Assembly (NCBI GenBank): GCA_036802765.1
Contig: DAIRVP010000001.1
Location: 2,153-66,152, forward strand
Reading direction: 5' to 3'
Length of the DNA stretch: 64,000 nucleotides
Origin: Candidatus Rokuibacteriota bacterium
Lineage (GTDB): Bacteria > Methylomirabilota > Methylomirabilia > Rokubacteriales > CSP1-6
How positions within the stretch are numbered: position 1 is the first letter of the stretch; every line of letters starts with the position of its first letter. Position numbers and translations under genes: made by a program. This document shows, piece after piece, positions 347 through 40,382 of this stretch. The notes under the pieces were generated by a model. That model was not told where the DNA came from. It did no database searches and saw nothing but the letters and a program-made list of their open reading frames with translations.

Positions 347-1048
347 CTAGCGACCGCGCCGTCGCGGCGCCGACAATCCCGGCAGCCCGGCCGTCCAACG
401 CGGCATCGGCGGAAACTCTTCGGCCAGTCGCCCGTCGACATACGTCGCAACCGGCCGATACGGCGTGCTGACCATGCTGTTGTCGAAGAGAAACGCCTTG
501 TCGACGACCCCGACTGCGGCGGTCAGATTCTTCAGCGTCCGCGGAAATCGCGCGAACAGCTTGTCGTTCGGCACGTCGTGCCCGCCCCGCGCGACGCGCG
601 TGGCCACGCGAGCCACGGACAGCGCAGGGCTGGCGAGACCGATGAACACCAGCAGCACGACGAAGCCTGACCCCCGAGCGCGCTCGATGAAGTCGAGCTT
701 CGCTCCGGCCGGATCCGACAACACGGTCTCGGTGCAAAACCCGAAACGTAGGTCCAACAGGTCCGCGCGAAGCCGTTCGGCTTCCTCGAACGCGCGCCGC
801 TCGAGCTGCGCCGGCGGCAGGCGGGGGTCGGCGTCGCGCATCACACGCGCGATGTGGTCGGCGTTGACGAAGAGCAGTCCCAAGCCGTGCAGGTATTCAG
901 CGAAGAATGTCGACTTGCCGGCGCCGTTAGGGCCGGCGAGCACGATCAGAACCGGCCGCTCGTCAGCGGCGGCGGCGCGCAGCGATGCGGATGGGGGGAC
1001 GCTCAACGAACGTCCGTCCCTCGAAGTGGCCGAGCGTCCGGCGGCCAT
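347..1048 (-). CDS. Zeta-toxin-like P-loop kinase (toxin of a type II TA pair)
   Basis: Walker A motif LIVLAGPNGAGKST. It overlaps the 3' end of an upstream ParD-like antitoxin gene on the same strand. The true start may be downstream of the first ATG. Confidence 0.6.
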   Translation of the reverse strand: MAAGRSATSRDGRSLSVPPSASLRAAAADERPVLIVLAGPNGAGKSTFFAEYLHGLGLLFVNADHIARVMRDADPRLPPAQLERRAFEEAERLRADLLDLRFGFCTETVLSDPAGAKLDFIERARGSGFVVLLVFIGLASPALSVARVATRVARGGHDVPNDKLFARFPRTLKNLTAAVGVVDKAFLFDNSMVSTPYRPVATYVDGRLAEEFPPMPRWTAGLPGLSAPRRRGR

Positions 1049-1388
1049 CCGGCGCGATCTGGATCACGCTGTCGGGATCCTCGGGGTCCGCTTCGTAGAG
1101 CGGCCCGCCTCCGGCGCGGATCCTGGCCTTGACGGACTCACGGTCGGACTCGTGCGTGAGCTCCGTGAGCACGGCTTCGACGTCGTCGCGTCGCACCCAG
1201 GTGGGCATGGCGAGCCGCTCGCCGGCACGCTTGAGCATGAGCACTTCGCTGTGGCCGGCCATCACCTCGATGGCGCGGCCGAGGGTGGCCCAGTGCTCGA
1301 TCTGCGCGGTGACGGAGCGGTGGGTTTCCTTGGCTTCGGCTTTGGCCCGAGCAAGCAGCCGATCCGAGATCTTCACCGGTGCGGGCAT
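963..1388 (-). CDS. ParD-like antitoxin (partner of the zeta-like toxin)
   Basis: 141-aa protein MPAPVKISDRLLARAKAEA...IEHWATLGRAIEV, typical of ParD-like antitoxins found upstream of zeta/AAA toxins. Gene order is antitoxin then toxin, with an overlap. Confidence 0.55.
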   Translation of the reverse strand: MPAPVKISDRLLARAKAEAKETHRSVTAQIEHWATLGRAIEVMAGHSEVLMLKRAGERLAMPTWVRRDDVEAVLTELTHESDRESVKARIRAGGGPLYEADPEDPDSVIQIAPDGRRTLGHFEGRTFVERPPIRIAARRRR

Positions 1389-7534: not shown

Positions 7535-8391
7535 TGCGCACGCTCACGTTCGGCCGTCTCACCGTCGATGTCGTCGTCGAGCGGTCGGGCCCGACGCGGC
7601 CGACGTGGCTGTTGCCCGATGCGACGCCGGACGCGGTCGAGCGTCATCGCCCGTGGCTCGCGCCGCACTTTCTCGACGACAAGGGTCGATTCCTCCAGTC
7701 GATCCACACGTTCGTGGTCCGCGCACCGGGACTGACCGTGCTCGTGGACACGTGCGTCGGCAACGACAAGGATCGCGGCGGGCGCGCGCCGTTCCACATG
7801 ATGCGCACGACGTTCCTGGACGACCTGCAGACCGCCGGAGTGGCGCCGGAATCCGTGGACGTGGTGATCTGCACTCACCTGCACGTCGACCACGTCGGCT
7901 GGAACACGCGGCTCGAGAACGGTCGTTGGGTGCCGACGTTCCCGCGTGCGCGCCATCTGTTCGCGAGGCGCGAGTGGGAACACTGGTCGAGCGAGCGTGA
8001 CGACGACACGCGCCGCATCATGGCCGACAGCGTGCAGCCCGTGCTCGACGCCGGTTTGGCCGATCTCGTCGAGATGGATCACCGGTTGTCCGCCGAGATC
8101 ACGCTGGAGCCGACGCCGGGACACACGCCGGGGCACACCAGCGTGCGGCTGCGGTCCGAGGGCGGCGACGCGGTGATCACCGGCGACCTCATGCACCACC
8201 CGATTCAGATGGCGGAACCGCAGTGGTGCAGTCATTTCGACGTCGATCCCGAAACGGCGCGCAAAACGCGCCGGGCGTTTTGCGAGCGCTATGCGGGCGG
8301 CGCCGTCGCCGTGCTCGGCACGCACTTCCATGACCCGACCGCCGGCAGGATCGTCCGTCACGGCGAGACGTGGCGTTTCGAGGTGCTCTGA
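7534..8391 (+). CDS. MBL-fold metallo-hydrolase (lactonase-like)
   Basis: HLHVDHVGW motif. ATG overlaps the dapL stop. Its own stop overlaps the EthD start. Confidence 0.8.
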   Translation: MRTLTFGRLTVDVVVERSGPTRPTWLLPDATPDAVERHRPWLAPHFLDDKGRFLQSIHTFVVRAPGLTVLVDTCVGNDKDRGGRAPFHMMRTTFLDDLQTAGVAPESVDVVICTHLHVDHVGWNTRLENGRWVPTFPRARHLFARREWEHWSSERDDDTRRIMADSVQPVLDAGLADLVEMDHRLSAEITLEPTPGHTPGHTSVRLRSEGGDAVITGDLMHHPIQMAEPQWCSHFDVDPETARKTRRAFCERYAGGAVAVLGTHFHDPTAGRIVRHGETWRFEVL

Positions 8392-8771
8392 TGGTGAAGC
8401 TCGTGTTCTCTCTTACGCGGCTGCCGCACCTTTCGCGCGACGAATTCCAGCGCTACTGGCGTGAGCGTCATGGGCCACTGGTGCGTGAGTCGGCCAAGGC
8501 GCTCGGGATCCGTCGATACGTTCAGGTGCACACGCTCGACACAGCGGTGAACGACGCGCTCCGGCGCGGGCGCGGCGGTCCCGAGCCGTACGACGGCGTG
8601 GCCGAGCTGTGGTTCGACAGCCTCGACGCGCTGGCGGCCGCCGGGGCCACACCGGAGGGCCGCGCCGCGGGCCGACGGCTGGTCGAAGACGAGCGCACGT
8701 TCATCGACCTTGCTCGCTCGCCCGTCATGCTGGCCGAGGAGCACGAGATCGTCGGCACCGCTTCGCGCTGA
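8391..8771 (+). CDS. EthD-domain protein
   Basis: MVKLVFSLTRLPHLSRDEFQRYWRERHGPLV... matches the EthD family. TGATG overlap with the upstream gene. Confidence 0.7.
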   Translation: MVKLVFSLTRLPHLSRDEFQRYWRERHGPLVRESAKALGIRRYVQVHTLDTAVNDALRRGRGGPEPYDGVAELWFDSLDALAAAGATPEGRAAGRRLVEDERTFIDLARSPVMLAEEHEIVGTASR

Positions 8772-8859
8772 CGACGACTTGCCGACGCGCGTGCGCGCCC
8801 GTACCCTGTCCGGCGCTTCGGCGTTCGTGAGGCGCATGAACATCCCATAGGAGGAACGC

Positions 8860-9363
8860 ATGGCGATCAAGGTCGGCGATCGGCTGCCCGAGGGCACCCT
8901 GACGGAGATGATCGACACGGAGCGTGAGGGCTGCACGCTCGGTCCCAATGCTTTCAATGTGAGCGACCTGGTCAAAGGCAAGAAGGTCGCGGTCTTCGCG
9001 GTGCCCGGCGCCTTCACGCCGACGTGCTCGGCCAAGCACGTGCCGAGCTACGTGCAAAACTTCGACAAGCTGCGCGCCAAGGGCGTGGACGAGATCTGGT
9101 GCATCGCGGTCAACGACGCGTTCGTCATGGGCGCCTGGGGGCGGGATCAGAAGGCCGGCGGCAAGGTCCGGATGCTGGCCGACGGCAGCGCGACCTACAC
9201 GAAGCAGCTCGGCCTCGACCTGGATCTCGTGGGCCGCGGCATGGGGGTGCGCTCGCAGCGCTATTCGATGCTGGTTGACGATGGCGTCGTCAAGGCGCTG
9301 CACGTCGAGGCCCCGGGCAAGTTCGAGGTCAGCGACGCTGAGACCATGCTGAAAGACCTGTGA
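8860..9363 (+). CDS. Peroxiredoxin, Prx5 type (Redoxin family)
   Basis: FTPTCS peroxidatic-Cys motif. RBS AGGAGGA upstream. Confidence 0.85.
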   Translation: MAIKVGDRLPEGTLTEMIDTEREGCTLGPNAFNVSDLVKGKKVAVFAVPGAFTPTCSAKHVPSYVQNFDKLRAKGVDEIWCIAVNDAFVMGAWGRDQKAGGKVRMLADGSATYTKQLGLDLDLVGRGMGVRSQRYSMLVDDGVVKALHVEAPGKFEVSDAETMLKDL

Positions 9364-9836
9364 TGGCCATCGTCGAGGGCAAGAAGGCGCCTGATTTCAC
9401 GCTCGCGGACGCGGCGGGCAAGAAGGTCTCGCTCGCCGACTTCAAAGGTAAGGACGTCGTCGTCTACTTCTATCCGAAGGACGACACGCCGGGCTGCACC
9501 AAGGAGGCCTGCGGGTTCCGCGATCTGAACAAAGAACTCCAGAATTCCGGCGTCATGGTGCTCGGTGTCTCGGCCGACTCGGGGGAATCACATACGAAGT
9601 TCGCGCAGAAATATCGGCTGCCCTTCACGCTGCTGTCGGATCCCGACCGGAAGGTCATGACCGCATGGGGGGCCTACGGCGACAAGATGATGTACGGCAA
9701 GAAGACGAAGGGCGTCATCCGCTCGACGGTGTGGATCGGCCCCGACGGCGTCGTTCGCAAGCACTGGAAGAAGGTGGCGGATGCCGCCAAGCATCCCGAG
9801 CAGGTGTGGGCCGCGGTCCGTGGAGATGGCGTATGA
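9363..9836 (+). CDS. bcp: Thioredoxin-dependent peroxiredoxin Bcp
   Basis: YFYPKDDTPGCTKEAC motif. The start overlaps the Prx5 stop. Confidence 0.85.
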   Translation: MAIVEGKKAPDFTLADAAGKKVSLADFKGKDVVVYFYPKDDTPGCTKEACGFRDLNKELQNSGVMVLGVSADSGESHTKFAQKYRLPFTLLSDPDRKVMTAWGAYGDKMMYGKKTKGVIRSTVWIGPDGVVRKHWKKVADAAKHPEQVWAAVRGDGV

Positions 9837-10543
9837 CGGACTACGCTGCGATCGAGCGACGCTTGCGCGCGCAGTTGGGTCTCACGCGCCGCCCGGTCGC
9901 CATCGCGTTCCGCGACACGCCGCCCGCTGGCGTGAAGCAATTCTCGGGCTCCGAGCCGTCGGGCTGCTCGTTCTGGCGGATCGCGATGGAAGGACGGACA
10001 TTTTTCACGGTGCCGGGCGATCACTACAACTGCCCTGTCGGCGCTCACACGCACAACATTCCACTTCCGAGCGAGCGCGCCGGCGAGCTGCCGCAAGTGT
10101 TGCAGATCATGACGGGCCTCGGCTACTTGAAGATGGAAGAAGTGCCCGGCATCCCGCGCCTTCCGAAGACGCCGGGCGCGGTCGTGTATGCGCCGCTCGG
10201 CGACACCCCCATGGATCCCGACGTCGTGCTCTTCATCGGCCCGCCGGGACGGCTGATGCTGCTGCAAGAGGCCGCGCTCCGCGCGGGCGTCACCCCTAAC
10301 GTCCCGTTGCTCGGCCGTCCGACCTGCATGGCGCTGCCCGCGGCGCTGGCCGGCGGCGCCGTCGCGAGCACGGGGTGCATCGGCAACCGGGTCTACACGG
10401 GAGCCGGCGAGGACGAGTTGTACGTCGCCGTGGCCGGGCGTGACATCGCGCGCGTTGCCGACGAGACGGAGACCATCGCGCGGGCCAACGCGGCGCTCGC
10501 CGACTATCATCGTGGCCGCCGCGCGACGTTGGCCACGGAGTAA
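9833..10543 (+). CDS. DUF169-family protein
   Basis: 236 aa. ATGA overlap with the bcp stop. Family assignment is recalled from memory. Confidence 0.6.
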   Translation: MTDYAAIERRLRAQLGLTRRPVAIAFRDTPPAGVKQFSGSEPSGCSFWRIAMEGRTFFTVPGDHYNCPVGAHTHNIPLPSERAGELPQVLQIMTGLGYLKMEEVPGIPRLPKTPGAVVYAPLGDTPMDPDVVLFIGPPGRLMLLQEAALRAGVTPNVPLLGRPTCMALPAALAGGAVASTGCIGNRVYTGAGEDELYVAVAGRDIARVADETETIARANAALADYHRGRRATLATE

Positions 10544-10552
10544 GGGGCGGCC

Positions 10553-10957
10553 ATGAAGCTGAAGAAGGGATTTCGCCAGCTCGTCGACGAGGCGAAGGCG
10601 CGCATCATGACGATCAGCCTGGACGACGCCAAGCGGCGTCACGGCCGCGACGACGTCGTGTTCGTGGATCTGCGCGACATCCGTGAGCTCGAGCGCGAAG
10701 GCATGATCCCCGGCGCGTTTCACTGCCCTCGCGGCATGCTCGAGTTCTGGATCGATCCCGACAGTCCCTACCACAAGGACGTGTTCGCGTCGGGCAAGGA
10801 GTTCGTCTTCTACTGCAACGGCGCCTGGCGGTCCGCGCTCGCGACCGACGTGGCGCAACAGATGGGCCTGCCGCGCGTGGTCGAGATGGACGGCGGCTTC
10901 ACCGCCTGGAAGAACGCCGGTCTGCCCGTCGCACAGCGCGAGAAGAAGAAGGTGTGA
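10553..10957 (+). CDS. Rhodanese-domain sulfurtransferase
   Basis: Active-site loop FYCNGAWRS. Confidence 0.8.
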   Translation: MKLKKGFRQLVDEAKARIMTISLDDAKRRHGRDDVVFVDLRDIRELEREGMIPGAFHCPRGMLEFWIDPDSPYHKDVFASGKEFVFYCNGAWRSALATDVAQQMGLPRVVEMDGGFTAWKNAGLPVAQREKKKV

Positions 10958-18016: not shown

Positions 18017-18724
18017 ATGGCTGACCTCGCAACGCTCGATCGGACGTACGACTTCATCATGCGGCGAATCATCGCGGACGGACGCGCGCCGCATTACACC
18101 GAGATCGCCTCGGAATTTCGCGTTGCACCCGACGTCGGACTCGGGCTGCTGCGTGATCTCATGGCCGTCGGCCTGCCGAACTGGCTTCATCCTCACACCG
18201 ACCTGATCGCGTCGTTCCCGCCGTTCAACAATCTGCCGACGCAGTACCGCCTCGGCGTCGGCGGCGAGTGGAAGTGGTTCGCGCAGTGCGGCCTCGAAGC
18301 GCTCGCCGCCTGCTGGGCGTTCCCTGGACGCGGCGTGGACATCGAAGCGCCGTGCCTCGACTGCGGCAAGTCCATCGAGGTCACCGTGCGCGATGGCCGG
18401 ATCGAGCGCGCGGTGCCGGCCACGATCCGCTTCTACGTCTCGGTGCCGGTGCGCGACTGGCGCGCGAACATCACCTATACCTGAAGCCACATGAACCTCT
18501 TCCGGTCGGAAGAGGATGCGCGTCGGTGGTCGGACTTCGTGCCTGGCAGCGACGCGGGCATTGTCACGCTCGAACAAGCGATGGCGATCATGAGCACCCC
18601 ACGCCACCGCAACCGATTCGACGGCCGCTACGTTTCGTCGTCGCCGAGCTACGGCGCGGCGTTCTTCGCGAAGCTGCGCGAGGTGACCGGCGGCAGCCCT
18701 TACTGGGAGCCGCCGGCCACCTGA
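18017..18724 (+). CDS. Alkylmercury-lyase (MerB) family protein interrupted by an in-frame TGA at 18482-18484 (candidate Sec codon or nonsense/pseudogene)
   Basis: ORFs 18017..18484 and 18491..18724 are in the same frame. Conserved MerB C-terminal motifs (FxxSVPxxDW; GIVTLEQAMA) lie on both sides of the TGA. Confidence 0.5.
18496..18515 (+). other. SECIS-like hairpin (8-bp perfect stem cctcttcc/ggaagagg, loop GGUC) starting 12 nt after the UGA
   Basis: Seen directly in the sequence. Confidence 0.45.
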
Positions 18725-18736
18725 TCGATCGCCGCG

Positions 18737-19354
18737 CTACTGCAGCGGCGAGAACGAGGACGGCAGGCAGATCTTCGTCTCCTGCGTGATCAGCCGATCG
18801 GCGCCGCCCGGCGGCGGCCACACGCCCTTCTTGCGGGCCTCGTCACGGATCTGCATGCGCTGATCCAGGCTCTGGTATGCCCAGATGTGCACGAAGCCGT
18901 TGGCGCGCCCGAACTCCACGCCGCCCGCAAACACCACCGGCGAGAGCTTGATGCGATCCGGCAGCTTCTCGCTCCAGCCCTTCGCGGTGGCCGGGAGCGA
19001 CCCTCCCTTGAGGGTGTAGTAGCGGATCTCGAAGATCGGGCCCATCCGGCCGGGCTGCGGCGTGGGCACGAAATCGAACGGCGAGATGATCTCCGAGCTC
19101 ATCGTACGGATGAACTCCTGGATCTTCGGCGGCCAGTTCGGGTCCTTGGAGGCCTCGGCGCGGATGCTCGCGCGCTCCGCGAGGTCCTTGTACCCCCAGA
19201 TGTGGATGATCTCGTTGAGCGGCCCGATCTCCGTGTGCAGGAAAGCCGTGAGCGGGGAGTACTTCTTGCGGTGCTCGTACGCCTCGCCGTACCGCTTCTC
19301 GACCTCAGCCAGGCTACCGGGCACGATACCGTAGGTGCGGATCTCGTAGATCAT
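18737..19354 (-). CDS. NIPSNAP-family protein (tandem NIPSNAP domains)
   Basis: MIYEIRTY...IWGYKDLAERASIRA, repeated twice. Confidence 0.75.
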   Translation of the reverse strand: MIYEIRTYGIVPGSLAEVEKRYGEAYEHRKKYSPLTAFLHTEIGPLNEIIHIWGYKDLAERASIRAEASKDPNWPPKIQEFIRTMSSEIISPFDFVPTPQPGRMGPIFEIRYYTLKGGSLPATAKGWSEKLPDRIKLSPVVFAGGVEFGRANGFVHIWAYQSLDQRMQIRDEARKKGVWPPPGGADRLITQETKICLPSSFSPLQ

Positions 19355-19536
19355 GCGCTCTCCTTTCAGACTCCGAACGGTTCAAGGCCGCCCATGCGGC
19401 GCCCAGCCTACGAGGGTGCCGGCCGGGCGTCAACCGGGATGCAGATTGTCTTCCTCGCCGAGCGGCGGTAGCATCCCCGCACTCGTCTCGCGTCGCACGA
19501 ACGTCCGCGCCCCGTGACATCACAGGAGGACTGCTC

Positions 19537-20202
19537 ATGACGACCCCGCGCTCGCGCATCATCGCGAGCAGTGACCTCGGCTGGCAGGAATTCCGGCCTG
19601 GCATCAGCTTCAAAATTTTGTGGGAAGACCCCGCCACGAAACGGCGGGCGCAGATGACGCGCTTCGCGCCGGGCGCCCGGCTGCCTCAGCATCGGCACCT
19701 CGGGGACGAGCTGATCTTCGTCATCGAGGGCGCGCTGACCGACGAGGCGGGAACGGTCACCGCCGGCAACGTCGTGTACCGGCCCAACGGGTGCATCCAC
19801 AACGTCTCGACGCAGAACGGCGCGACGGCCCTCGCCGTGCTCACCGGCGACATCGAGCCGACCGACGACGCGGCCGGCGCGGCGCGCTCGCAGATCGTCA
19901 CGCTGAGCGAGCGGCCGTGGGTCGACGCGCGCCCGGGCGTGCGCCAGAAGCGGATCTGGGAGGACAAATCCACCGAGCGCCGCGCGATTCTGGCGCGCTT
20001 CGAGCCGGGTGCGAAGCTCCCGCTGCATCGTCACGTCGGCGACGAGCTGATCTTTCTGCTCGAGGGCTCCAATGCGGACGAATCGGGCGTCGTGGCCACC
20101 GGCAACCTGAACTACCGCCCGAACGGCTGCGTCCACAGCGTGACGACCCAGAACGGCGCAACGGTATTCGCCGTCGTCTGGGGTCATACAGAACCGGTCT
20201 GA
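19537..20202 (+). CDS. Tandem-cupin protein (ChrR-like cupin domains)
   Basis: Two repeats of ...RF.PGA.LP.HRH.GDELIF..EG...DE.G....GN..YRPNGC.H. Confidence 0.7.
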   Translation: MTTPRSRIIASSDLGWQEFRPGISFKILWEDPATKRRAQMTRFAPGARLPQHRHLGDELIFVIEGALTDEAGTVTAGNVVYRPNGCIHNVSTQNGATALAVLTGDIEPTDDAAGAARSQIVTLSERPWVDARPGVRQKRIWEDKSTERRAILARFEPGAKLPLHRHVGDELIFLLEGSNADESGVVATGNLNYRPNGCVHSVTTQNGATVFAVVWGHTEPV

Positions 20203-20213
20203 GAGGAGTCGAC

Positions 20214-21281
20214 ATGGAGATTCCACGCACGATGAAGGCGACCGTCCTCGTCGCGCCGCACCGCTTCGAGCTGCAAGAGCGGCCCGTGCCGGTGCCCGGC
20301 GACGAAGACGTGCTCGTTCGCGTGCGCGCCTGCGGCGTCTGAGGCACAGATCTGAAAATCATCCACACCGGCATGCCCCAGATGCCGCCGTACGGCGAGT
20401 TCATCTTCGGGCACGAGTACGCGGGCGACGTCGTTGCCATCGGCCGGACCGTGGACGAGTTTCAGGTCGGCGACCGGGTGGTCGTCGAGGCGCACATGGG
20501 CTGCCGTCGCTGCGAGAACTGCATTCGTGGCCTGTACACCGCGTGTCTGAACTACGGCAACGCCAAGCGCGGACACCGCGCGAACGGCTTCACCACCAAC
20601 GGCGGGCTCGCGGAATACGCCGTGAACCACGTCAACACGCTCTATCGGATCCCCGAGGGCGTCTCGTACGAAGAAGCGACGGTCGTGATGACGTCCGGCA
20701 GCCCGCTGTTCGGTCTCGAGAACGCCGGCGGATACTTTGCCGGTGAGACCGTGGCTGTGCTCGGGCCCGGACCGATCGGGCTGATGGCGATCCAGCTGGT
20801 GAAGGCGCTCGGCGCGACGCGCGTGATCCTGACCGGCACGCGAGCCTCGCGGCTGGCCATGGGGCGTCAGCTCGGCGCCGATGTGATCGTGAACAGTCGC
20901 GAGCAAGATCCGATCGAGGCGGTGATGACGGCGACCGGTGGCAAGGGCGCCGACCTCGTCATCGACTGTGCGGGCGCCGACGAGACGTTCGATCAGTCGC
21001 TGAAGATGACGAAGTCGGGCGGCAAGGTGCTGCTCGTCGCGTTCTATCACGGCCCGGTGACCGCCGACGTCAGTCACGCTGTACGCCGCAACGTGACGAT
21101 CTACACCGAGCGCGGCGAGGGCGGCACCAGCGTGGGGCGCGCGCTCGCGCTGCTGGCGGCCGGTCGCCTCACCGCCAAGCCGCTGATCACGCACCAGTTC
21201 CCGCTCTCCCGCGTGCACGAGGCGTTCGACGTGCTCGAAAAACGGATCGGCGATCCTCTGAAAGTCGTTCTCAATCCGTGA
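20214..21281 (+). CDS. Zn-dependent alcohol dehydrogenase (MDR family) with an in-frame TGA at 20340-20342 replacing the catalytic Zn-ligand Cys (candidate Sec or nonsense)
   Basis: ORFs 20214..20342 and 20373..21281 share one frame. Read-through gives VRVRACGV-U-GTDLKIIHTG...GHEYAG...CRRCENC. RBS GAGGAG. Confidence 0.6.
20369..20387 (+). other. Weak hairpin (6-bp stem ccggca(u)/a(u)gccg... loop gccccag) 27 nt after the ADH UGA
   Basis: Seen in the sequence. There is no U in the loop. Less SECIS-like than the other two. Confidence 0.2.
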
Positions 21282-22222
21282 GGCGTGCGCTCGGGCTCGC
21301 CGCCCTCCTGCTGCTGGCAGCAGTCGCGCCGGCGACGGCGTTTCCCGACAAGCCGCTCGAGCTGACCGTGCTCTTCGGGGCCGGCAGCGCCGCGGACCTG
21401 CTCGCGCGCAAGCTCGCGGAGCTCGCTGGGCGCGACCTCGGCCAGCCCGTGGCGGTCGTGAATCGCACCGGCGCCGGCGGCGCGCTCGGGTACACCTACG
21501 TGAAGAGCCAGCCCGCCGACGGCCACGCGCTGGTGTGGAACAGCAACAGCGTCAGCACCGCCTATCACGCCGGCAACATGAAGCTCGACTACAACGCATT
21601 CGCCGGCGTGGCGACGTTGACGAGCGAGCCGGTGTCGCTGGCGGTCAAAGCGGATGCGCCGTGGAAGGCCATCCGCGAGCTGCTCGCGCATGCGAAGGCG
21701 CATCCGGGTCAGGTGCGCATCGGCAACTCGGGCCGCGGCAGCTTCACGCATCTCGTCGCCGTCGCGCTGGAGAACCGCGCCGGCGTCAAGCTGACTCATG
21801 TGCCGTTCGGCCGCGAGCTCGCGGTGACGACGGTGCTCGGCGACAAGATCGAGGCGAGCGTGCAGCTGCCCGCGGAGATCATGGCGCAGATCACCGGCCG
21901 ACAGGTCCGGGTCCTGGCGGTGAGCGGCAACAAGCGCCTCGCCTCCCTGCCCGACGTGCCGACGCTCAAAGAATCCGGCGTCGATCTCACGATGACGCTG
22001 TGGCGGGGCGTGGCGGTGCCGAAGGGCACGCCTCCGGCCGTGATCGTGCGGCTCGAGCGCGCGTTCACACAGGCAGCGCAGAGCGCCGAGTTCCGCGACT
22101 TCGCGACGCGCATGGGCGCCGTCGTCGACGTGCGCGGCGCGGCCGACTTCGATGCGTTCATCGCGCGCGACGACCGCGAGATCGCCGCGCTAATGGAGCA
22201 GATCGGGCTCAGGAAGCAGTAG
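21278..22222 (+). CDS. tctC: Tripartite tricarboxylate transporter substrate-binding protein TctC
   Basis: Bug/TctC family. GTG overlaps the ADH stop. Confidence 0.85.
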   Translation: MRRALGLAALLLLAAVAPATAFPDKPLELTVLFGAGSAADLLARKLAELAGRDLGQPVAVVNRTGAGGALGYTYVKSQPADGHALVWNSNSVSTAYHAGNMKLDYNAFAGVATLTSEPVSLAVKADAPWKAIRELLAHAKAHPGQVRIGNSGRGSFTHLVAVALENRAGVKLTHVPFGRELAVTTVLGDKIEASVQLPAEIMAQITGRQVRVLAVSGNKRLASLPDVPTLKESGVDLTMTLWRGVAVPKGTPPAVIVRLERAFTQAAQSAEFRDFATRMGAVVDVRGAADFDAFIARDDREIAALMEQIGLRKQ

Positions 22223-22224
22223 CG

Positions 22225-22692
22225 GTGGGCCGCGACCGCTGGAGCGCGGCCGGGCTCGCACTGCTGGCCATCATGTATCTCCTCGTCGCCCGGCGTTATC
22301 CCCTCGACACGCTCGCCACGCCAGGCCCGGGCGTCATCCCGCTGATCGCGGGAGTCGCGCTGCTCGCGACGGCGATCTGGCTGTTGATCGTCGCGAGAAC
22401 CGCGAGGCCGGCTCGTGATGTGGGCGGCCTGAGCGGGAGCGGCGCGGCTCCGACACGCCCGATCGAATCGGTGCCTGTTCTCAGGTCGCCGTTCGTGCTG
22501 ACCGCGGCGCTCATCCTCTACGCGGCGCTGCTTCCGCGACTCGGGTTCATCGCCTCCTCGTTCGCACTCGTCGTGCTCGCCTCGCGGCTCATGGGCGCGC
22601 GTGGCTGGTGGCGTCCCGTCGTGCTCGGGCTCGGCGTTGCCGCCACCGCTTACCTGCTCTTCGCGCGCTGGCTCGGCGTGCCGCTGCCGTGA
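22225..22692 (+). CDS. tctB: Tripartite tricarboxylate transporter TctB (small membrane subunit)
   Basis: 4-TM 155-aa protein between tctC and tctA. GTG start. Confidence 0.6.
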   Translation: MGRDRWSAAGLALLAIMYLLVARRYPLDTLATPGPGVIPLIAGVALLATAIWLLIVARTARPARDVGGLSGSGAAPTRPIESVPVLRSPFVLTAALILYAALLPRLGFIASSFALVVLASRLMGARGWWRPVVLGLGVAATAYLLFARWLGVPLP

Positions 22693-24167
22693 GCGAGCTC
22701 TTCGTCGCGCTGACACCGGCGAATCTGCTCGCGTGCTTCGTCGGCACGGTGCTCGGCACGATCGTCGGCGTGCTGCCCGGGCTCGGGCCCGCCGGCGCGA
22801 TGGCCCTGGTGCTGCCGCTCACGATCAAGCTAGGGCCGACGGCCGGTCTGATCATGCTCGCCGGCATCTATTACGGCGCGATGTACGGCGGCTCGACGAC
22901 GTCGATCCTCGTCAACGTGCCCGGCGAGGCGGCGAGCGTCGTGACCACGATCGACGGGTATCGCCTTGCGCGAAAAGGCCGCGCCGGTGCCGCGCTCGCC
23001 ATCGCTGCGATCGCGTCGTTCGTCGCGGGCACGATCAGCGTCGTCGCGCTGCAAGTCGCCGCGCCGTTCGTCGCTCGGGCGGCGCTCGCGTTCGGTCCCG
23101 CGGAATATTTCGCCTTCGCACTGCTCGGTCTCGTGCTGCTCGCGAATCTCACCGGCGGCTCGCGCGCGAAATCGCTCGCGATGGTGCTCACCGGTCTCAT
23201 GCTGTCCACGGTCGGCATGGACCCGCTGGGCGGCACGGTGCGGTTCACGTTCGATCTGGCCGGCGCGCAGGCCGGGCTCAGCTTCGTCGCCGTCACGACG
23301 GGACTCTTCGGTGTCGCCGAGGTGCTTGCGAGCATGGCCGAGCCGGCGGCAAGCAGCGCCGTCGCCCGCGTGCGCTTCCGCGATCTCTATCCGAACCGCG
23401 AGGAGCTGCGTCGCTCGGTGCCGCCGATGCTGCGCGGCACCGTGCTCGGCTTTCTCGTCGGCCTCGTACCGGGACCGGCCGCGACGATCGCGTCGTTCGT
23501 GTCGTACGGCATCGAAAAAAAGGTAAGCAGACATCGTCGCGAGCTCGGCACCGGCGCCATCGAAGGCGTCGCCGGCCCCGAGGCGGCGAACAACGCGGCC
23601 GCCGGTGGCGGGATGATTCCACTACTCTCGCTCGGGCTGCCGTTCACGCCGTCGACGGCGGTGCTGCTGAGCGGGATGCTGCTGATGAGCGTGACGCCGG
23701 GGCCCTTTTTGTTGCGCGACCATCCGAGCGTTTTCTGGGGCGTGATCGGATCCTTCTACGTCGGCAACGTGATGCTGCTCCTGCTCAACCTGCCGCTGGT
23801 CGGCGTCTTCGCGCGCGTCGCCACGATTCCGCCGAAGTATCTGATGCCCGGCGTGCTCGTGCTCTGCGCGGTGGCCGCGTACTCGGACAACAACAACATC
23901 TTCGACGTGTGGGTCATGGTCGTCGCGGGCATCGCCGGCTGGGCGATGCGCGCGCTCGATTTCTCTCCCGCGCCGCTGGTGCTCGGACTCGTGCTCGGCC
24001 CGGTGCTCGAGCGCTCACTGCTGCAGGCGCTGACGATCGCGCGCGGCGAGGTCCGCGGCCTGTGGGCATCGGGCCCCGCCGCGGTCATGCTGGCGGCCGC
24101 CGTGGTCGCCTTCGTCGCGCCGGGTCTCGTGGCGCTGGTCCGCCGAAGCGCCACGCGGACGACTTAG
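22689..24167 (+). CDS. tctA: Tripartite tricarboxylate transporter permease TctA
   Basis: Polytopic membrane protein. GTGA overlap with tctB. Confidence 0.85.
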   Translation: MSELFVALTPANLLACFVGTVLGTIVGVLPGLGPAGAMALVLPLTIKLGPTAGLIMLAGIYYGAMYGGSTTSILVNVPGEAASVVTTIDGYRLARKGRAGAALAIAAIASFVAGTISVVALQVAAPFVARAALAFGPAEYFAFALLGLVLLANLTGGSRAKSLAMVLTGLMLSTVGMDPLGGTVRFTFDLAGAQAGLSFVAVTTGLFGVAEVLASMAEPAASSAVARVRFRDLYPNREELRRSVPPMLRGTVLGFLVGLVPGPAATIASFVSYGIEKKVSRHRRELGTGAIEGVAGPEAANNAAAGGGMIPLLSLGLPFTPSTAVLLSGMLLMSVTPGPFLLRDHPSVFWGVIGSFYVGNVMLLLLNLPLVGVFARVATIPPKYLMPGVLVLCAVAAYSDNNNIFDVWVMVVAGIAGWAMRALDFSPAPLVLGLVLGPVLERSLLQALTIARGEVRGLWASGPAAVMLAAAVVAFVAPGLVALVRRSATRTT

Positions 24168-24185
24168 ACACGCGGACGACTTAGA
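24152..24185. repeat. Perfect 17-bp tandem duplication cacgcggacgacttaga x2 covering the tctA stop
   Basis: Seen directly. The second copy sits in the spacer before the RidA RBS. Confidence 0.6.
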
Positions 24186-24197
24186 AAGGAGGCAACC

Positions 24198-24593
24198 GTG
24201 AATCGTCGGCTCATCAGCTCAGGCTCGACATTCGAACGAGAGATCGGTTACTCGCGAGCGGTCGTCGATGGCGAATGGGTGTTCGTCTCGGGGACGACCG
24301 GCTACGACTACCAGGCGATGACGATTTCGGACAACCTGCTCGAGCAAACCGAGCAGTGCTTGCGCAACATCAAATCTGCGCTCGAGCAGGCCGGCGCCTC
24401 CTTTGCGGACGTCGTGCGCGTCACCTACATCCTCCCTCGGAGCGACGACTTCCCGGCGTGCTGGCCCGTCCTCCGGAAATATTTCGGTGACGTTCGACCG
24501 GCGGCGACGATGATTTCGGCGGGGCTGGCCGACCCCAGGATGCGGATCGAGATCGAAGTCACGGCGCGCCGTCGGGCGGCGGCGGTGGTATAA
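24198..24593 (+). CDS. ridA: RidA/YjgF-family reactive-intermediate deaminase
   Basis: 131 aa, GTG start, RBS AAGGAGG. Confidence 0.8.
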   Translation: MNRRLISSGSTFEREIGYSRAVVDGEWVFVSGTTGYDYQAMTISDNLLEQTEQCLRNIKSALEQAGASFADVVRVTYILPRSDDFPACWPVLRKYFGDVRPAATMISAGLADPRMRIEIEVTARRRAAAVV

Positions 24594-24602
24594 GTCGGGA
24601 CC

Positions 24603-26288
24603 ATGACAAGCGCAGAGCCCATGTACGACGTTGTCTGGCCGCTCGCCCCGTCCGCCGCACCGCCGGGATCACTCGCGGCGCGTTCCCAGGATCTTCGCGG
24701 CAAAACCGTCGGTGAGCTATGGGATTACCTGTTCAAGGGCGAGGAGATCTTTCCCCTCATCCGAACGGCGCTCGAGGCCCGCTATCCCGGTATCCGCTTC
24801 GTCGAGTTCGAGACCTTCGGCTCGACGCACGGCCGCGACGAGAAAGAGCTCGCAGCGACGCTGCCCGGACTGCTGCGCCAGCACGGCTGCGACGCGGTGA
24901 TCTCCGCCGTCGGCGCCTGAGGATCGTGCACGCCCGCCGTGTTGCGGGCCGCCGCGATCGCCGAGCGCGCCGGAGTGCCGAGCGTCTCTATCGTCACGAC
25001 ACCGTTCATGCAGCAGGCCGCGGTCGTGTCCAAGGGCGTCGGCCTGCCGTCGCTGCCGATCGCTGAGTACCCCGGCGTGCCGATGACCGACGGCTCGGAC
25101 GCCGTCGCACGAAAGATCGACGCGCTGTTGCCACAGATCGTGGCGGGCCTCGCCGGCGCCCGCGACGTCGTGCGCACCGCAGTCGCCGAGCCGGGGCCGC
25201 GCGACATCGTGGCGCGTGGCACGCTCGACGAGGTCCAGGAGCTCTATCACCGCAATCTTTGGAGCGACGGGCTGCCGGTGATTCCCCCGACGATCGACCG
25301 CGTCGAGCGCTTTCTCGCTCAAACGCGGCGCGCACCAGACGAAGTGATCGGACGGCTGCTGCCCGAGAACCGTGCGGCCACCGTCTGGAGCATCGCGGTC
25401 AACGGCGTCATGGCAGGCTGCCGGCCCGAATACATGCCGGTCCTCGTTGCTATCGTGGAAGCCATCGCGGAGCCGATCTTCCGCGTCGAGGACGCCGGCT
25501 CGACGCCGGGCTGGGAGCCGCTCGTGATCGTGAGCGGCCCCATCGCCAGGCGTCTCGACCTCAATCACGGTCAGGGCGTGATGCGTGTGGGGCGCCAGGC
25601 CAACACGAGTCTCGGTCGCTTCTTGCGGCTCTACCTTCGCAACGTCGCGGGGCTGCGAATTCCGCCCGGCGCGGGCGACAAGGGCGGCATCGCGGCCTCG
25701 TTCAACGTGGCGCTGGCCGAAGACGAAGACGCCGCTGCCGCGCTGGGATGGCCGACGTTCGGCGCGGACCAAGGCTTCACGCGCGACGACAGCGTGGTCA
25801 CCGTGCAGAGCGTGGTGAGCATCAGCCCGCCGATCTACTCCGCCGGCACGCGCGCGCTCGAGCATGCGCGCATCCTCGCCGAGGTGTTCGGCGGCGCGTG
25901 CAGCTACTGGTCGTCGATCGGCATGAAGTACGCGCGCTGGGAGCCGCTGCTCGTGCTGGGCCCGTCGATCGCGCGTGTGATCGCCGACGACGGCTGGTCG
26001 AAGGACGATCTGCGCCGTTACCTCCACGAGCACGTGACGATCACCGCACGCCAGGCCGAGACGTATGCGCTGCAGGTCGGCGCAACGTCGTTCACGCTCG
26101 ACGCCCACGTCAAGGCCGGCGTGCTGCCCGCCTCCTACGCGACGTCCAGCGATCCGGAACGCGCGGTGCCGGTGTTCGTGCAGCCGGAGAAGATCGGGAT
26201 TCTCGTCGCCGGCGATCCCGGCCGCAATCAGTCCAAAGGCTACGTCAACAACCACATTCAGGGTGGCCGCATCAGCAAGAGGGTTTGA
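24603..26288 (+). CDS. Candidate selenoprotein with a U-G-S-C motif (in-frame TGA 24918-24920) and a long C-terminal domain of unknown function
   Basis: ORFs 24603..24920 and 24939..26288 share one frame. GC3 bias is continuous through the whole 561 codons. Context reads ...HGCDAVISAVGA-U-GSCTPAVLRAAAIAERAGVPS... Confidence 0.55.
24932..24949 (+). other. SECIS-like hairpin (gcccgc / CGUGUU / gcgggc) starting 12 nt after the UGA
   Basis: Seen directly. GU in the apical loop. Confidence 0.45.
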
Positions 26289-26289
26289 T

Positions 26290-26796
26290 ATGGATGCCAA
26301 TGCGAAGAAAACCGCGCTGCGAATGATTCCGTACGGCCTCTACGTCCTCACCGCCGCAGACAAGAGCGGCGGCCGCGTGGCCGCCGGCACCGTGAACTGG
26401 GTGACGCAGGTCGCGTTCGAGCCGCCGCTGGTCGTCGTCGGCGTGAAGACGGACTCGCACGCGCATCCACTCATCAAGGAAACGAAGGCGTTCGCGCTGA
26501 ACGTGCTCGGCAAGGGTCAGCAGGCGATGGCATTCACATTCTTCAAACCGGCCGAGCTCGCCGGCGACACCGTCTCCGGTCAGCCATTTCGTCGCGGCAC
26601 GACGGGGGCGCCGATTCTGAGCAACGCGCCGGCCTTCGTCGAGTGCACGCTCGAGACGACCGTCGAACAAGGCGATCACTCGATCTTCGTCGGCCGCGTC
26701 GTCGAGGCCGGGGTGGCGAAGGCGCCGGACGGGCGACCCGATGACGCCACGCTGTGGCTGCGCGATCTCGGCGACAAGGTTTTCTACGGAGGCTAG
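26290..26796 (+). CDS. Flavin reductase-like (FMN-binding split-barrel) protein
   Basis: MDANAKKTALRMIPYGLYVLTA... Start overlaps the upstream stop. Confidence 0.8.
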   Translation: MDANAKKTALRMIPYGLYVLTAADKSGGRVAAGTVNWVTQVAFEPPLVVVGVKTDSHAHPLIKETKAFALNVLGKGQQAMAFTFFKPAELAGDTVSGQPFRRGTTGAPILSNAPAFVECTLETTVEQGDHSIFVGRVVEAGVAKAPDGRPDDATLWLRDLGDKVFYGG

Positions 26797-39500: not shown

Positions 39501-40382
39501 ATGACCACGACGATCGCCCAGCGCTATCTCACCGAGGAGCAGATCGCGAGCTACCGCCGGGACGGCTACCTCGCCGTGCCCGGCGTCATCGACGCCGAGC
39601 GCGTGCAGGCACTCCGCCGCGTGACCGAGGCGTTCGTCGAGCGCGCGCGGGGCCTCGCGCGGAGCGATGCGGTGTTCGACCTCGATCCGCGTCATACGGC
39701 CGCGGCGCCGATCGTGAGGCGGATCAAGAATCCCGCCGATCACGATCCGCTCTACGCGTGGGTGTCGCTGGAGTCGCCGATCCTCGACATCGTCACCGAG
39801 CTGCTCGGGCCGTCGATCCGTTTTCATCACAGCAAGCTGAATCTCAAGGGCGGTCACGTCGGCGCGCCGGTCGAGGTGCATCAGGACGCGGCGTTCTACC
39901 CGCACTCGAACGACGACGTGCTCGCCGTCGGCCTGTTGCTGGACGACGCGACGGCGGAAAACGGCGCCATGTCCGTGCTGCCTGGCAGCCATCGCGGACC
40001 GATCTACACGCACTACGATGCGCAGGGGCGCTTCGTCGGCGGCCTGCGCGCCGAGGACATCTCGCGGCTCGATCGGAGCGGCGCCACGCTGCTCGCGCTG
40101 CCGGCTGGCAGCATCCACATCCATCACTACCGGCTCGTGCACTGGTCGGCCCCCAACACGTCGCCCGCGGATCGCCGGCTGCTCATCGACGCGTACTCCG
40201 CGGCCGATGCGATCCCGCTCGCGGCGGATCCGACGTGCTCACCGCGCTACGGACGGCTCGTGCGTGGCTCCTATCCGTCCGTCGCGCGCCGCACCGCCGG
40301 CGACATGCCGATGCCGCCCGACTTCAGTCGCGGTTACACGTCGATTTACGAGCTGCAGCAGAACGACGCCGTCAGCCCTTGA
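39501..40382 (+). CDS. Phytanoyl-CoA dioxygenase (PhyH) family Fe(II)/2OG oxygenase
   Basis: HQD...H facial-triad context. Confidence 0.8.
   Translation: MTTTIAQRYLTEEQIASYRRDGYLAVPGVIDAERVQALRRVTEAFVERARGLARSDAVFDLDPRHTAAAPIVRRIKNPADHDPLYAWVSLESPILDIVTELLGPSIRFHHSKLNLKGGHVGAPVEVHQDAAFYPHSNDDVLAVGLLLDDATAENGAMSVLPGSHRGPIYTHYDAQGRFVGGLRAEDISRLDRSGATLLALPAGSIHIHHYRLVHWSAPNTSPADRRLLIDAYSAADAIPLAADPTCSPRYGRLVRGSYPSVARRTAGDMPMPPDFSRGYTSIYELQQNDAVSP

What the first reader, a model, noticed from the sequence alone, without database searches (positions are those of the whole stretch)
18017..26288. Three Cys-position or motif-position UGA codons within about 7 kb point to Sec recoding in this genome rather than scattered pseudogenes
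TGA is clearly a normal stop elsewhere in the window. Many genes end in TGA, including stop/start overlaps of the TGATG type (1-nt overlap). So a reassigned genetic code is excluded. Yet three otherwise intact genes (MerB-like, Zn-ADH, UGSC protein) each carry exactly one in-frame TGA. Two of the three have GC hairpins with GU loops at an identical +12 offset. No selA/selB/selD or tRNA-Sec is present in the window.
Basis: inference. Interest (0 to 1): 0.8.

Follow-up and report, generated by a model that had tools for sequence, protein, structure and literature searches.

The report
Three selenocysteine genes in a Rokubacterium
Three neighbouring genes in this soil Rokubacteria (Methylomirabilota) genome each use one in-frame UGA to encode selenocysteine at a metal-binding or redox cysteine position, and one of them, a zinc alcohol dehydrogenase, is not in the 2026 catalogue of bacterial selenoproteins I could read.

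Summary
Three intact genes each carry one in-frame TGA: a MerB-like gene at 18482, a Zn-ADH at 20340 and a UGSC protein at 24918. TGA is otherwise the commonest stop in the window. The same TGAs recur in at least 6 independent assemblies, so they are not assembly errors.

- **MerB-like:** codon 156 is TGA in 88 of 88 loci (44-92% identity). It aligns with MerB catalytic Cys159. A 7-bp hairpin with a GGUC loop follows and shows compensatory changes. This gene is not SaoL.
- **UGSC:** a known selenoprotein family. Cys homologues read CG[ST]C, and the upper SECIS stem-loop is essentially invariant in 9 sequences. In one relative the gene sits beside selA, selB and tRNA-Sec.
- **Zn-ADH:** the TGA replaces the catalytic zinc-ligand Cys. 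It is conserved in 23 gene copies from 22 other loci in species-representative Rokubacteria MAGs, and 11 sister loci have TGC or TGT. The 42 codons upstream evolve as coding sequence (dN/dS 0.20). No canonical SECIS was found, only weak candidates.

No Sec-decoding genes lie in the window or within 10 kb of it. The rest of the genome could not be searched. Verdict: selenocysteine recoding is supported. The ADH and the MerB-like subfamily appear to be uncatalogued members of a known kind.

The parts
18017..18724 (+). MerB-like (alkylmercury-lyase fold) selenoprotein gene, 235 codons, Cys91 / Sec156
   Evidence: Pfam MerB 5e-20. PDB alignment to MerB2 5c17 and to MerB puts C91 = Cys96, E94 = Asp99 and U156 = Cys159. 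Full-length alignment across the TGA in 88 loci.
18482..18484 (+). UGA (Sec156) of the MerB-like gene
   Evidence: TGA in 88 of 88 loci at 44-92% amino-acid identity. Cys in P0150 and P0217.
18496..18515 (+). SECIS hairpin of the MerB-like gene: 7-8 bp stem CCUCUUCC/GGAAGAGG with loop GGUC
   Evidence: 98.1% of cells paired in 75 distinct sequences. 4 of 7 pairs have changes on both sides. 0 of 500 shuffles reach the observed covariation. Window fold -17 kcal/mol, z = -2.0.
20214..21281 (+). Zn-dependent medium-chain dehydrogenase gene (threonine/polyol-dehydrogenase-like), 355 codons, Sec43. Its terminal TGA overlaps the GTG start of tctC.
   Evidence: Pfam ADH_N plus ADH_zinc_N. Best PDB hit is P. 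horikoshii L-threonine dehydrogenase 2d8a, E = 5.5e-51. NCBIfam hits all fall below their cut-offs.
20340..20342 (+). UGA (Sec43) at the catalytic zinc-ligand Cys position of the ADH
   Evidence: Aligns with Cys42 of 2d8a. Cys in all 24 full-length homologues read. TGA in 23 gene copies from 22 other MAG loci; TGC or TGT in 11 sister loci and in every homologue below 60% identity.
20332..20388 (+). Candidate RNA structure around the ADH UGA: a long hairpin whose 10-bp stem embeds the U and G of UGA. Function unproven.
   Evidence: -24.7 kcal/mol, z = -2.9 in the window. z = -3.5 to -4.4 in three other Sec forms against -0.8 to -2.3 in three Cys forms. No covariation, and 86% of cells are also paired in Cys forms.
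20369..20387 (+). Candidate SelB-binding hairpin H1 of the ADH: CGGCAU/AUGCCG stem with loop GCCCCAG, 26 nt after the UGA. Weak evidence.
   Evidence: 91% of cells paired in 24 Sec forms. One pair switches C-G to G-C in 6 sequences. 5 of 500 shuffles reach the score. No covariation in 11 Cys forms, where one pair is broken in 4 of 11.
24603..26288 (+). UGSC-family selenoprotein gene, 561 codons: an N-terminal UGSC domain fused to a roughly 380-aa domain with no Pfam match; Sec106
   Evidence: Pfam UGSC 5e-28. NCBIfam UGSC_fam 57 bits, below the 125 cut-off. Full-length homologues of 570-596 aa are named 'UGSC family (seleno)protein'.
24918..24920 (+). UGA (Sec106) of the U-G-S-C motif
   Evidence: Cys in full-length homologues, which read C-G-[ST]-C. 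TGA in L007, L013, L015, L171-L174 and L176.
24922..24959 (+). SECIS of the UGSC gene: lower stem GAUCGUG/CGCGAUC, and upper stem GCCCGC/GCGGGC with loop CGUGUU (upper part 24932-24949)
   Evidence: -23.6 kcal/mol, z = -1.8. The upper stem is invariant apart from one G-U wobble, and one loop position varies, in 9 sequences down to 58% identity; the lower stem is rebuilt from different sequence in L172.

Best explanation
The window comes from a soil Rokubacterium (phylum Methylomirabilota). Its closest genome is Candidatus Rokuibacteriota AR7. The organism decodes specific UGA codons as selenocysteine with the standard bacterial system: tRNA-Sec, SelA, SelD, and SelB bound to an mRNA hairpin just downstream of the UGA. 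All three interrupted ORFs are single, functional selenoprotein genes.

1. **MerB-like lyase-fold protein.** Sec replaces the second metal-binding catalytic cysteine (MerB Cys159).
2. **Medium-chain Zn-dehydrogenase.** Sec replaces the cysteine ligand of the catalytic zinc.
3. **UGSC-family protein.** It has the U-G-S-C redox motif.

**Shown here:** the TGAs are real. They are conserved between species. They align with Cys in homologues. They are flanked by sequence under purifying selection. In genes 1 and 3 a conserved hairpin follows.

**Inferred:** the inserted residue is Sec, the genome encodes the machinery elsewhere, and the ADH UGA is served by a non-canonical or weak SECIS.

The ADH Sec form appears ancestral to the Rokubacteria clade and has reverted to Cys several times.
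For: **Reality of the TGAs.** Identical split genes occur in at least 6 independent assemblies.

**MerB-like gene.**
- TGA at codon 156 in 88 of 88 loci at 44-92% identity.
- Cys at that position in P0150 and P0217.
- U156 = MerB Cys159.
- SECIS with 4 of 7 compensatory pairs, 98% of cells paired, 0 of 500 shuffles reaching the score.
- As an internal control, a second hairpin with the same GGUC loop follows codon 91 only in family members where that codon is also TGA.

**ADH.**
- Cys43 in all 24 full-length homologues read.
- TGA in 23 gene copies from 22 other species-representative loci, against TGC or TGT in 11.
- Start codon retained (ATG in 22 of 23 Sec forms, GTG in one) and no indels.
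- dN/dS is 0.20 upstream and 0.16 downstream of the UGA, with dS about 0.65.
- Sec is basal in the clade's tree.
- Position 43 = Cys42 of threonine dehydrogenase 2d8a.

**UGSC.**
- Pfam family hit.
- C-G-[ST]-C in Cys forms.
- Conserved SECIS.
- The orthologue in L172 lies next to selA, selB and tRNA-SeC.

**Code.** TGA is the main stop codon in the window.

**Literature.** A Methylomirabilota MAG is predicted to hold 63 selenoprotein genes (PMC13188914). Sec-type hydrogenases are reported in Methylomirabilota (PMC13582414).
Against: - No selA, selB, selC or selD lies in the window, within 10 kb of it, or in any of the Rokubacteria loci fetched. The rest of the genome could not be searched.
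- The ADH has no hairpin at the canonical offset.
- The ADH candidate structures show no covariation or only one covarying pair, and they are nearly as well paired in Cys forms. Much of their pairing follows from the conserved peptides ACGV(U/C)G and GMPxMP.
- The UGSC SECIS is conserved but shows no compensatory change in its upper stem.
- No protein-level evidence exists.
Confidence: 0.85

Rival explanations
1. Some or all of the UGAs, above all the one in the ADH, are read as cysteine rather than selenocysteine. A SelC*-type tRNA (tRNA-ReC) delivered by SelB to SECIS-dependent UGA codons would do this.
For: Such tRNAs exist in Sec-using bacteria and co-occur with Sec-type genes (Vargas-Rodriguez 2018, as described in PMC13582414). 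A zinc ligand works as Cys in all relatives. Sec and Cys forms interchange often in the ADH tree.
Against: This route also needs SelB and a SECIS, so it does not explain the ADH's lack of a canonical hairpin. No tRNA of any kind lies in the window. tRNA-ReC is not reported for Methylomirabilota in the text read. A costly UGA kept for a long time (dS about 0.65) only to insert Cys has no obvious benefit over TGC.
Confidence: 0.06
2. The ADH UGA alone is not a Sec codon. It would be a leaky or regulatory stop, read through at low level by a near-cognate tRNA or otherwise independently of a SECIS. The MerB-like and UGSC UGAs would still be true Sec codons.
For: No canonical SECIS was found. The candidate structures lack covariation. 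The stable hairpin that embeds the UGA could act as a read-through or attenuation signal.
Against: The stop falls exactly on a Cys codon position and alternates only with TGC or TGT in sister species, which is the signature of Sec/Cys exchange. Trp, the usual read-through product, could not ligate zinc. The TGA is conserved in 24 gene copies with full purifying selection on both sides. The same genome carries two solid selenoprotein genes within 5 kb. The 2026 review notes that many bacterial SECIS elements resemble neither each other nor the E. coli elements (PMC13188914).
Confidence: 0.07
3. The TGAs are inactivating mutations (pseudogenes), sequencing or assembly errors, or signs of a reassigned genetic code.
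For: Gene callers split all three genes. Some database entries show Trp at the MerB-like TGAs.
Against: - The TGAs were assembled identically in at least 6 assemblies.
- They are conserved across many species with dN/dS about 0.2 on both sides.
- TGA ends 26 of 46 ORFs in the window, including overlapping stop/start pairs.
- The 'W' residues are TGA codons translated by gene callers on short contigs.
Confidence: 0.02

Closest known systems
UGSC family (seleno)protein (Pfam PF24696, NCBIfam NF041046; Zhang & Gladyshev 2007/2008)
   Same: The U-G-S-C motif with Sec first. Cys forms read CG[ST]C. A SECIS lies directly downstream. Long versions of about 570 aa already carry this family name in NCBI. 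The GOS paper described a UGSC/'Unknown_1' fusion (PMC2398784).
   Different: The window protein scores 57 bits against NF041046, whose cut-off is 125, and only over its N-terminal domain. The roughly 380-aa C-terminal domain has no Pfam match.
SaoL, the MerB-like organometallic-lyase selenoprotein of the SAO locus (NF040728; Haft & Gwadz 2022/2023)
   Same: MerB fold with Sec at the position of MerB Cys159 (bioRxiv 10.1101/2022.07.06.499078).
   Different: - The motif is T-U-S, not C-U.
- The HMM score is 34.6 against a cut-off of 140.
- No SAO gene neighbourhood: the neighbours are an enolase-superfamily enzyme, a NIPSNAP protein and a cupin.
- Found in soil and sediment metagenomes, not in the anaerobes of the SAO set.
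- Most family members carry a second Sec at the Cys96 position.
MerB / MerB2 organomercurial lyase (PF03243; PDB 3F0P, 5C17)
   Same: Same fold and the same catalytic triad positions: Cys96, Asp99 and Cys159 correspond to C91, E94 and U156.
   Different: - The MerB equivalog models score 35 and 29 bits against cut-offs of 193 and 200.
- Asp99 is Glu here.
- No mer operon is present.
- The substrate is unknown.
Zn-dependent medium-chain dehydrogenases: L-threonine 3-dehydrogenase, sorbitol dehydrogenase and scyllo-inosose dehydrogenase IolM (PDB 2D8A, 1PL6)
   Same: Full-length homology at E = 5.5e-51. GHE motif, four-Cys structural zinc site, and a GPGPIG nucleotide-binding motif.
   Different: The catalytic zinc-ligand Cys is encoded by UGA. 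No NCBIfam equivalog cut-off is reached, so the substrate is unknown. The gene sits in an operon with a TctCBA transporter.
Enzymes in which Sec ligates a catalytic metal: formate dehydrogenase FdhA (Mo/W) and [NiFeSe] hydrogenases
   Same: Sec substitutes for a Cys that binds the catalytic metal. Sec and Cys forms coexist in related organisms (PMC13188914; PMC13582414).
   Different: The metal here would be zinc in a non-redox, Lewis-acid site. The 2026 list of 119 families holds no such case.
Bacterial SECIS, for example E. coli fdhF
   Same: The MerB-like and UGSC hairpins start 11-12 nt after the UGA, have G+C-rich stems and have G/U-containing apical loops.
   Different: The ADH has nothing at that position. 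Its best candidates are a hairpin 26 nt downstream and a long stem that includes the UGA itself.

Membership tests
Bacterial selenoprotein gene (Sec/Cys-pair plus SECIS criteria) | In-frame UGA aligned with Cys in homologues | tested here: met
   ADH: Cys in all 24 full-length homologues read and in 11 sister loci. MerB-like: Cys in P0150 and P0217. UGSC: CG[ST]C in most of the full-length homologues read.
Bacterial selenoprotein gene (Sec/Cys-pair plus SECIS criteria) | UGA-containing orthologues in other organisms, with conserved coding sequence on both sides | tested here: met
   MerB-like: 88 of 88 loci. ADH: 24 gene copies, dN/dS 0.20 upstream and 0.16 downstream. UGSC: 9 sequences and dozens of truncated clusters.
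Bacterial selenoprotein gene (Sec/Cys-pair plus SECIS criteria) | SECIS stem-loop immediately downstream of the UGA | tested here: inconclusive
   Met for the MerB-like gene, with covariation. Met structurally for UGSC. Not met in canonical form for the ADH, which has only weak candidates.
Bacterial selenoprotein gene (Sec/Cys-pair plus SECIS criteria) | Genome encodes tRNA-Sec, SelA, SelB and SelD | not testable with these tools
   Absent from the window, from 10 kb on either side and from all fetched Rokubacteria loci. Indirect support only: literature for the phylum and the sel cluster beside a UGSC orthologue in L172.
Bacterial selenoprotein gene (Sec/Cys-pair plus SECIS criteria) | Selenium demonstrated in the protein | not testable with these tools
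   Needs 75Se labelling or mass spectrometry.
UGSC family | Pfam/NCBIfam family model and the U/C-G-S/T-C motif | tested here: met
   PF24696 scores 98.7 bits against a cut-off of 25. The motif A-U-G-S-C is present. The NF041046 equivalog cut-off is not reached: 57 against 125.
SaoL (NF040728) | HMM score above the cut-off, C-U dipeptide, and the nine-gene SAO neighbourhood | tested here: not met
   34.6 bits against 140. The motif is T-U-S. The neighbours are unrelated to SAO.
MerB organomercurial lyase (EC 4.99.1.2) | Equivalog HMM and the Cys96/Asp99/Cys159 triad | tested here: not met
   NF009710 scores 35 against 193 and NF033555 scores 29 against 200. The triad positions are occupied by C, E and U. 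The protein has the fold but is not an equivalog.
Zn-dependent medium-chain dehydrogenase/reductase | GroES-like and Rossmann domains, catalytic Zn ligands (Cys, His-Glu), structural Zn Cys4, and a GxGxxG motif | tested here: met
   ADH_N and ADH_zinc_N. U43 stands in the Cys position, and H66-E67, C96/C99/C102/C110 and GPGPIG are present. The roles of these ligands come from established knowledge of threonine dehydrogenase and horse-liver ADH, not from a test here.

The most novel reading that the evidence does not exclude
The Rokubacteria dehydrogenase is a true selenoenzyme whose catalytic zinc is ligated by selenocysteine. That would be a selenoprotein family missing from the current 119-family catalogue. 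It arose once at the base of this clade and reverted to Cys at least five times. It is decoded without a canonical SECIS, possibly through a hairpin that sequesters the UGA.

Alongside it sits an uncatalogued MerB-like family in which the second metal-binding cysteine is always Sec and the first usually is.
Probability: 0.5. Interest if true: 0.75.

Novelty: new member of a known kind. Interest (0 to 1): 0.6.

Why it matters
Selenocysteine recoding and the UGSC family are well known, and Methylomirabilota are already reported to hold very large selenoproteomes.

What is new here is which proteins are involved.

- **Zinc dehydrogenase.** A medium-chain zinc dehydrogenase with Sec as the catalytic zinc ligand would add a metal, and one of the best-studied enzyme superfamilies, to the short list of Sec-metal active sites. 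Natural Sec and Cys sister enzymes at 88-94% identity are ready for kinetic and oxidation-resistance comparison.
- **MerB-like family.** This family is widespread in soils and sediments. It always has Sec at one metal-binding position and usually at both. That points to organometal or metalloid chemistry outside the mer and SAO systems.
- **Annotation.** All three genes are split or truncated in public annotation. Some database entries show a false Trp at the Sec sites.

Tried and rejected
- **Sec machinery.** I looked in the window (ARAGORN, Rfam, tblastn with E. coli SelA/B/D), in 10 kb on either side and in about 170 fetched loci. Nothing turned up except in L172, which is a different organism. 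The tools do not allow walking further along the contigs.
- **Canonical ADH SECIS.** The 60 nt downstream fold no better than shuffles. RNAalifold gives no consistent hairpin. The long UGA-embedding stem has no covariation and is almost as well paired in Cys forms. I keep it only as a candidate.
- **Literature.** Four text searches and three reviews or databases gave no Sec-containing zinc dehydrogenase. Deng et al. 2026 (Cell Rep), Haft & Gwadz 2023 (J Bacteriol) and Haft & Tolstoy 2025 were not held, so prior mention there cannot be excluded.
- **Failed look-ups.** The look-up of window gene 39501-40382 found nothing. PMC13582414 has no supplement held.
- **Other same-frame stops.** Those at 10541, 39474, 43698, 44499 and 47353 were rejected as Sec candidates; the ones inspected (10541, 39474) are ordinary gene boundaries.

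Full report
**Observation**

- The MerB-like ORF 18017-18724 reads ...ANITYT-TGA-SHMNLFRSEED... with the TGA at 18482.
- The dehydrogenase ORF 20214-21281 reads ...VRVRACGV-TGA-GTDLKIIHTG... with the TGA at 20340.
- The ORF 24603-26288 reads ...AVISAVGA-TGA-GSCTPAVL... with the TGA at 24918.

With the stop replaced by Cys, each product matches one Pfam family across the stop: MerB (5e-20), ADH_N plus ADH_zinc_N, and UGSC (5e-28).

Third-position G+C stays at 0.80-0.95 in the same frame on both sides of each TGA. A scan of the whole window for stops flanked by coding-like sequence on both sides gave eight cases. Only these three interrupt a domain, and all three are TGA.

TGA is also the ordinary stop codon here. 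It ends 26 of 46 compositionally clear ORFs, including one-base TGATG overlaps at 9360 and 61051. A changed genetic code is therefore excluded.

The window contains no tRNA, no Rfam match and no relative of E. coli SelA, SelB or SelD.

**Origin, and exclusion of artefact**

An exact-protein look-up found the same locus, with the same three genes split in the same way, in at least six independent metagenome assemblies. The closest genome record is Candidatus Rokuibacteriota AR7 (L007, 96% for the dehydrogenase). Nearly all close relatives are Rokubacteria/Methylomirabilota MAGs.

**The MerB-like gene**

The protein search returned two groups. Dozens of 155-residue homologues at 55-97% identity stop exactly before codon 156. 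Full-length homologues of 232-239 residues lie at 41-47% identity.

In the alignment, most full-length homologues show Trp at codon 156 and at codon 91, while two from long contigs show Cys at both. Reading the DNA of one 'Trp' form showed that both Trp residues are TGA codons.

A metagenome scan gave 80 further loci. With the copies fetched earlier, codon 156 is TGA in 88 of 88 loci at 44-92% identity. Codon 91 is TGA in 61 loci and TGC or TGT in 27, including the window.

Alignment to solved MerB2 and MerB structures places C91 at MerB Cys96, E94 at Asp99 and the UGA at Cys159.

Twelve bases after the UGA lies the hairpin CUCUUCC-GGUC-GGAAGAG. Across 75 distinct sequences, 98.1% of cells pair. 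Four of the seven pairs show changes on both sides. Several of those changes alter the encoded amino acid (Glu to Lys), so the RNA pairing was kept at the protein's expense. None of 500 shuffles reaches the observed covariation.

There is also an internal control. Family members with TGA at codon 91 have a second hairpin, GCUGGC-GGUCU-GCUGGC, 11 bases downstream with the same GGUC loop motif. Cys91 forms, including the window, lack it.

This is a selenoprotein family, but it is not the known SaoL.
- The SaoL model scores 34.6 bits against a cut-off of 140.
- The motif is T-U-S, not C-U.
- The gene neighbourhood is unrelated (SaoL description from bioRxiv 10.1101/2022.07.06.499078).

**The UGSC gene**

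UGSC is an established selenoprotein family (PMC2398784; PMC13188914).

The search gave many homologues of about 450 residues that begin just after the TGA (58-91% identity). It also gave full-length proteins of 570-596 residues, some named 'UGSC family (seleno)protein'. Most of those read C-G-[ST]-C at the motif.

The RNA after the UGA folds into a lower stem, an internal loop and the upper hairpin GCCCGC-CGUGUU-GCGGGC (-23.6 kcal/mol, z = -1.8). In nine sequences down to 58% identity the upper stem is invariant apart from one G-U wobble, and one loop position varies. In L172 the lower stem is rebuilt from different sequence.

In L172 the orthologue, with motif U-G-A-C, lies divergently beside selA and selB and near a tRNA-SeC gene.

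**The dehydrogenase**

This is the interesting case. All 24 full-length homologues I read have Cys at position 43, in the motif ACG[VI]CGTD. The search also returned a large number of 299-302-residue forms at 80-93% identity that start just after that position.

In species-representative genomes the orthologue aligns over residues 1-355 in one frame. Codon 43 is TGA in 23 gene copies from 22 loci and TGC or TGT in 11. Every homologue below 60% identity has Cys.

The 42 codons upstream of the UGA keep their start codon (ATG in 22 of the 23 Sec forms, GTG in one). They evolve with dN/dS 0.20 at dS 0.67. That matches the Cys forms (0.25) and is close to the rest of the gene (0.16). The UGA is therefore translated.

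A neighbour-joining tree places Sec forms at the base of the Rokubacteria clade, with about five later changes to Cys.

Position 43 aligns with Cys42 of Pyrococcus L-threonine dehydrogenase. From established knowledge of this family, that residue is a ligand of the catalytic zinc and the equivalent of Cys46 of horse-liver ADH. The His-Glu pair and the four-Cys structural zinc site are present.

**What the dehydrogenase lacks**

It has no canonical SECIS.
- The 60 bases after the UGA fold no better than shuffles (z = -0.38).
- **Long hairpin.** It pairs GCGGCGUCUG, which includes the U and G of UGA, with CAGAUGCCGC 40 bases downstream. In four Sec forms it folds with z = -2.9 to -4.4, against -0.8 to -2.3 in three Cys forms. 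It has no compensatory changes and is 86% paired in Cys forms too. Its strands encode the conserved peptides ACGV and QMPP.
- **Hairpin H1.** This smaller hairpin (CGGCAU-GCCCCAG-AUGCCG) lies 26 bases after the UGA. It is 91% paired, with one pair switching C-G to G-C in six sequences; 5 of 500 shuffles reach that score. The Cys forms show no such signal.
- Synonymous sites just upstream of the UGA, and at codons +4, +10, +13 and +18, are more conserved in Sec forms than in Cys forms.

This is suggestive but not conclusive. I therefore give Sec decoding of this UGA a lower confidence than the other two. I keep two rivals open: Cys insertion by a tRNA-ReC type system, and SECIS-independent read-through.

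**Machinery**

I could not examine the rest of the genome. No sel gene lies in the window, within 10 kb on either side, or in any Rokubacteria locus fetched.

Indirect support comes from the literature. A Methylomirabilota MAG is predicted to carry 63 selenoprotein genes (PMC13188914). Sec-type hydrogenases have been found in the phylum (PMC13582414).

**Comparison with what is known**

The 2026 inventory of 119 prokaryotic selenoprotein families lists UGSC and SaoL but no zinc or medium-chain dehydrogenase. Text searches pairing selenoprotein terms with this enzyme family found nothing relevant, and BSepDB does not mention it. NCBI-derived entries name the truncated forms simply 'zinc-binding dehydrogenase' and 'organomercurial lyase'.

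Three papers that might mention candidates were not available to me.

**Verdict**

Two of the three proteins appear to be uncatalogued selenoprotein families.

Noticed in passing
L172:4900-11410: In a different organism (273-kb contig, 65% G+C), a tRNA-SeC gene, a pyridine-nucleotide disulfide oxidoreductase gene, selB and selA lie directly beside a TGA-split UGSC-fusion orthologue with motif U-G-A-C. This looks like a compact Sec-decoding locus next to a selenoprotein gene.
   Followed up: partly
L085:906-1106 and L086-L165: Most members of the MerB-like family (61 of 88 loci) carry a second TGA at the MerB Cys96 position, so both metal-binding cysteines would be Sec. Protein databases hold these as full-length proteins with Trp at both sites, because gene callers on short contigs read TGA as Trp.
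   Followed up: yes
L037:8724-11065: Two tandem dehydrogenase paralogues on one contig both have TGA at the zinc-ligand codon (73% and 81% identical to the window gene).
   Followed up: no
L174:1368-1835 (same in L175): An AhpC/TSA peroxiredoxin ORF is split by an in-frame TGA at the peroxidatic Cys position (...DWGRI-U-TPEL...). It is probably another selenoprotein on the contig that carries a UGSC orthologue.
   Followed up: partly
L034, L037, L038, L039: Contigs binned as Anaeromyxobacter, Sulfotelmatobacter, Miltoncostaeaceae and Actinomycetes carry dehydrogenase genes 81-91% identical to the Rokubacteria gene. They are probably mis-binned Rokubacteria contigs.
   Followed up: no
window 8370-10957: A cluster of an EthD-like gene, two tandem AhpC/TSA-redoxin genes, a DUF169 gene and a rhodanese gene, all uninterrupted. 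AhpC/TSA-type and rhodanese-domain proteins are listed among known selenoprotein families; here the genes appear to be the Cys versions.
   Followed up: no
window 347-1388 (- strand): A ParD-like antitoxin gene overlapping a zeta-toxin-family gene, which looks like a toxin-antitoxin pair at the left end of the window.
   Followed up: no
window 21278-24167 and 24198-26796: The dehydrogenase's stop overlaps the start of a tctC-tctB-tctA transporter operon. The UGSC gene sits between a RidA-family gene and a flavin-reductase gene. This context may hint at substrates but was not analysed.
   Followed up: no
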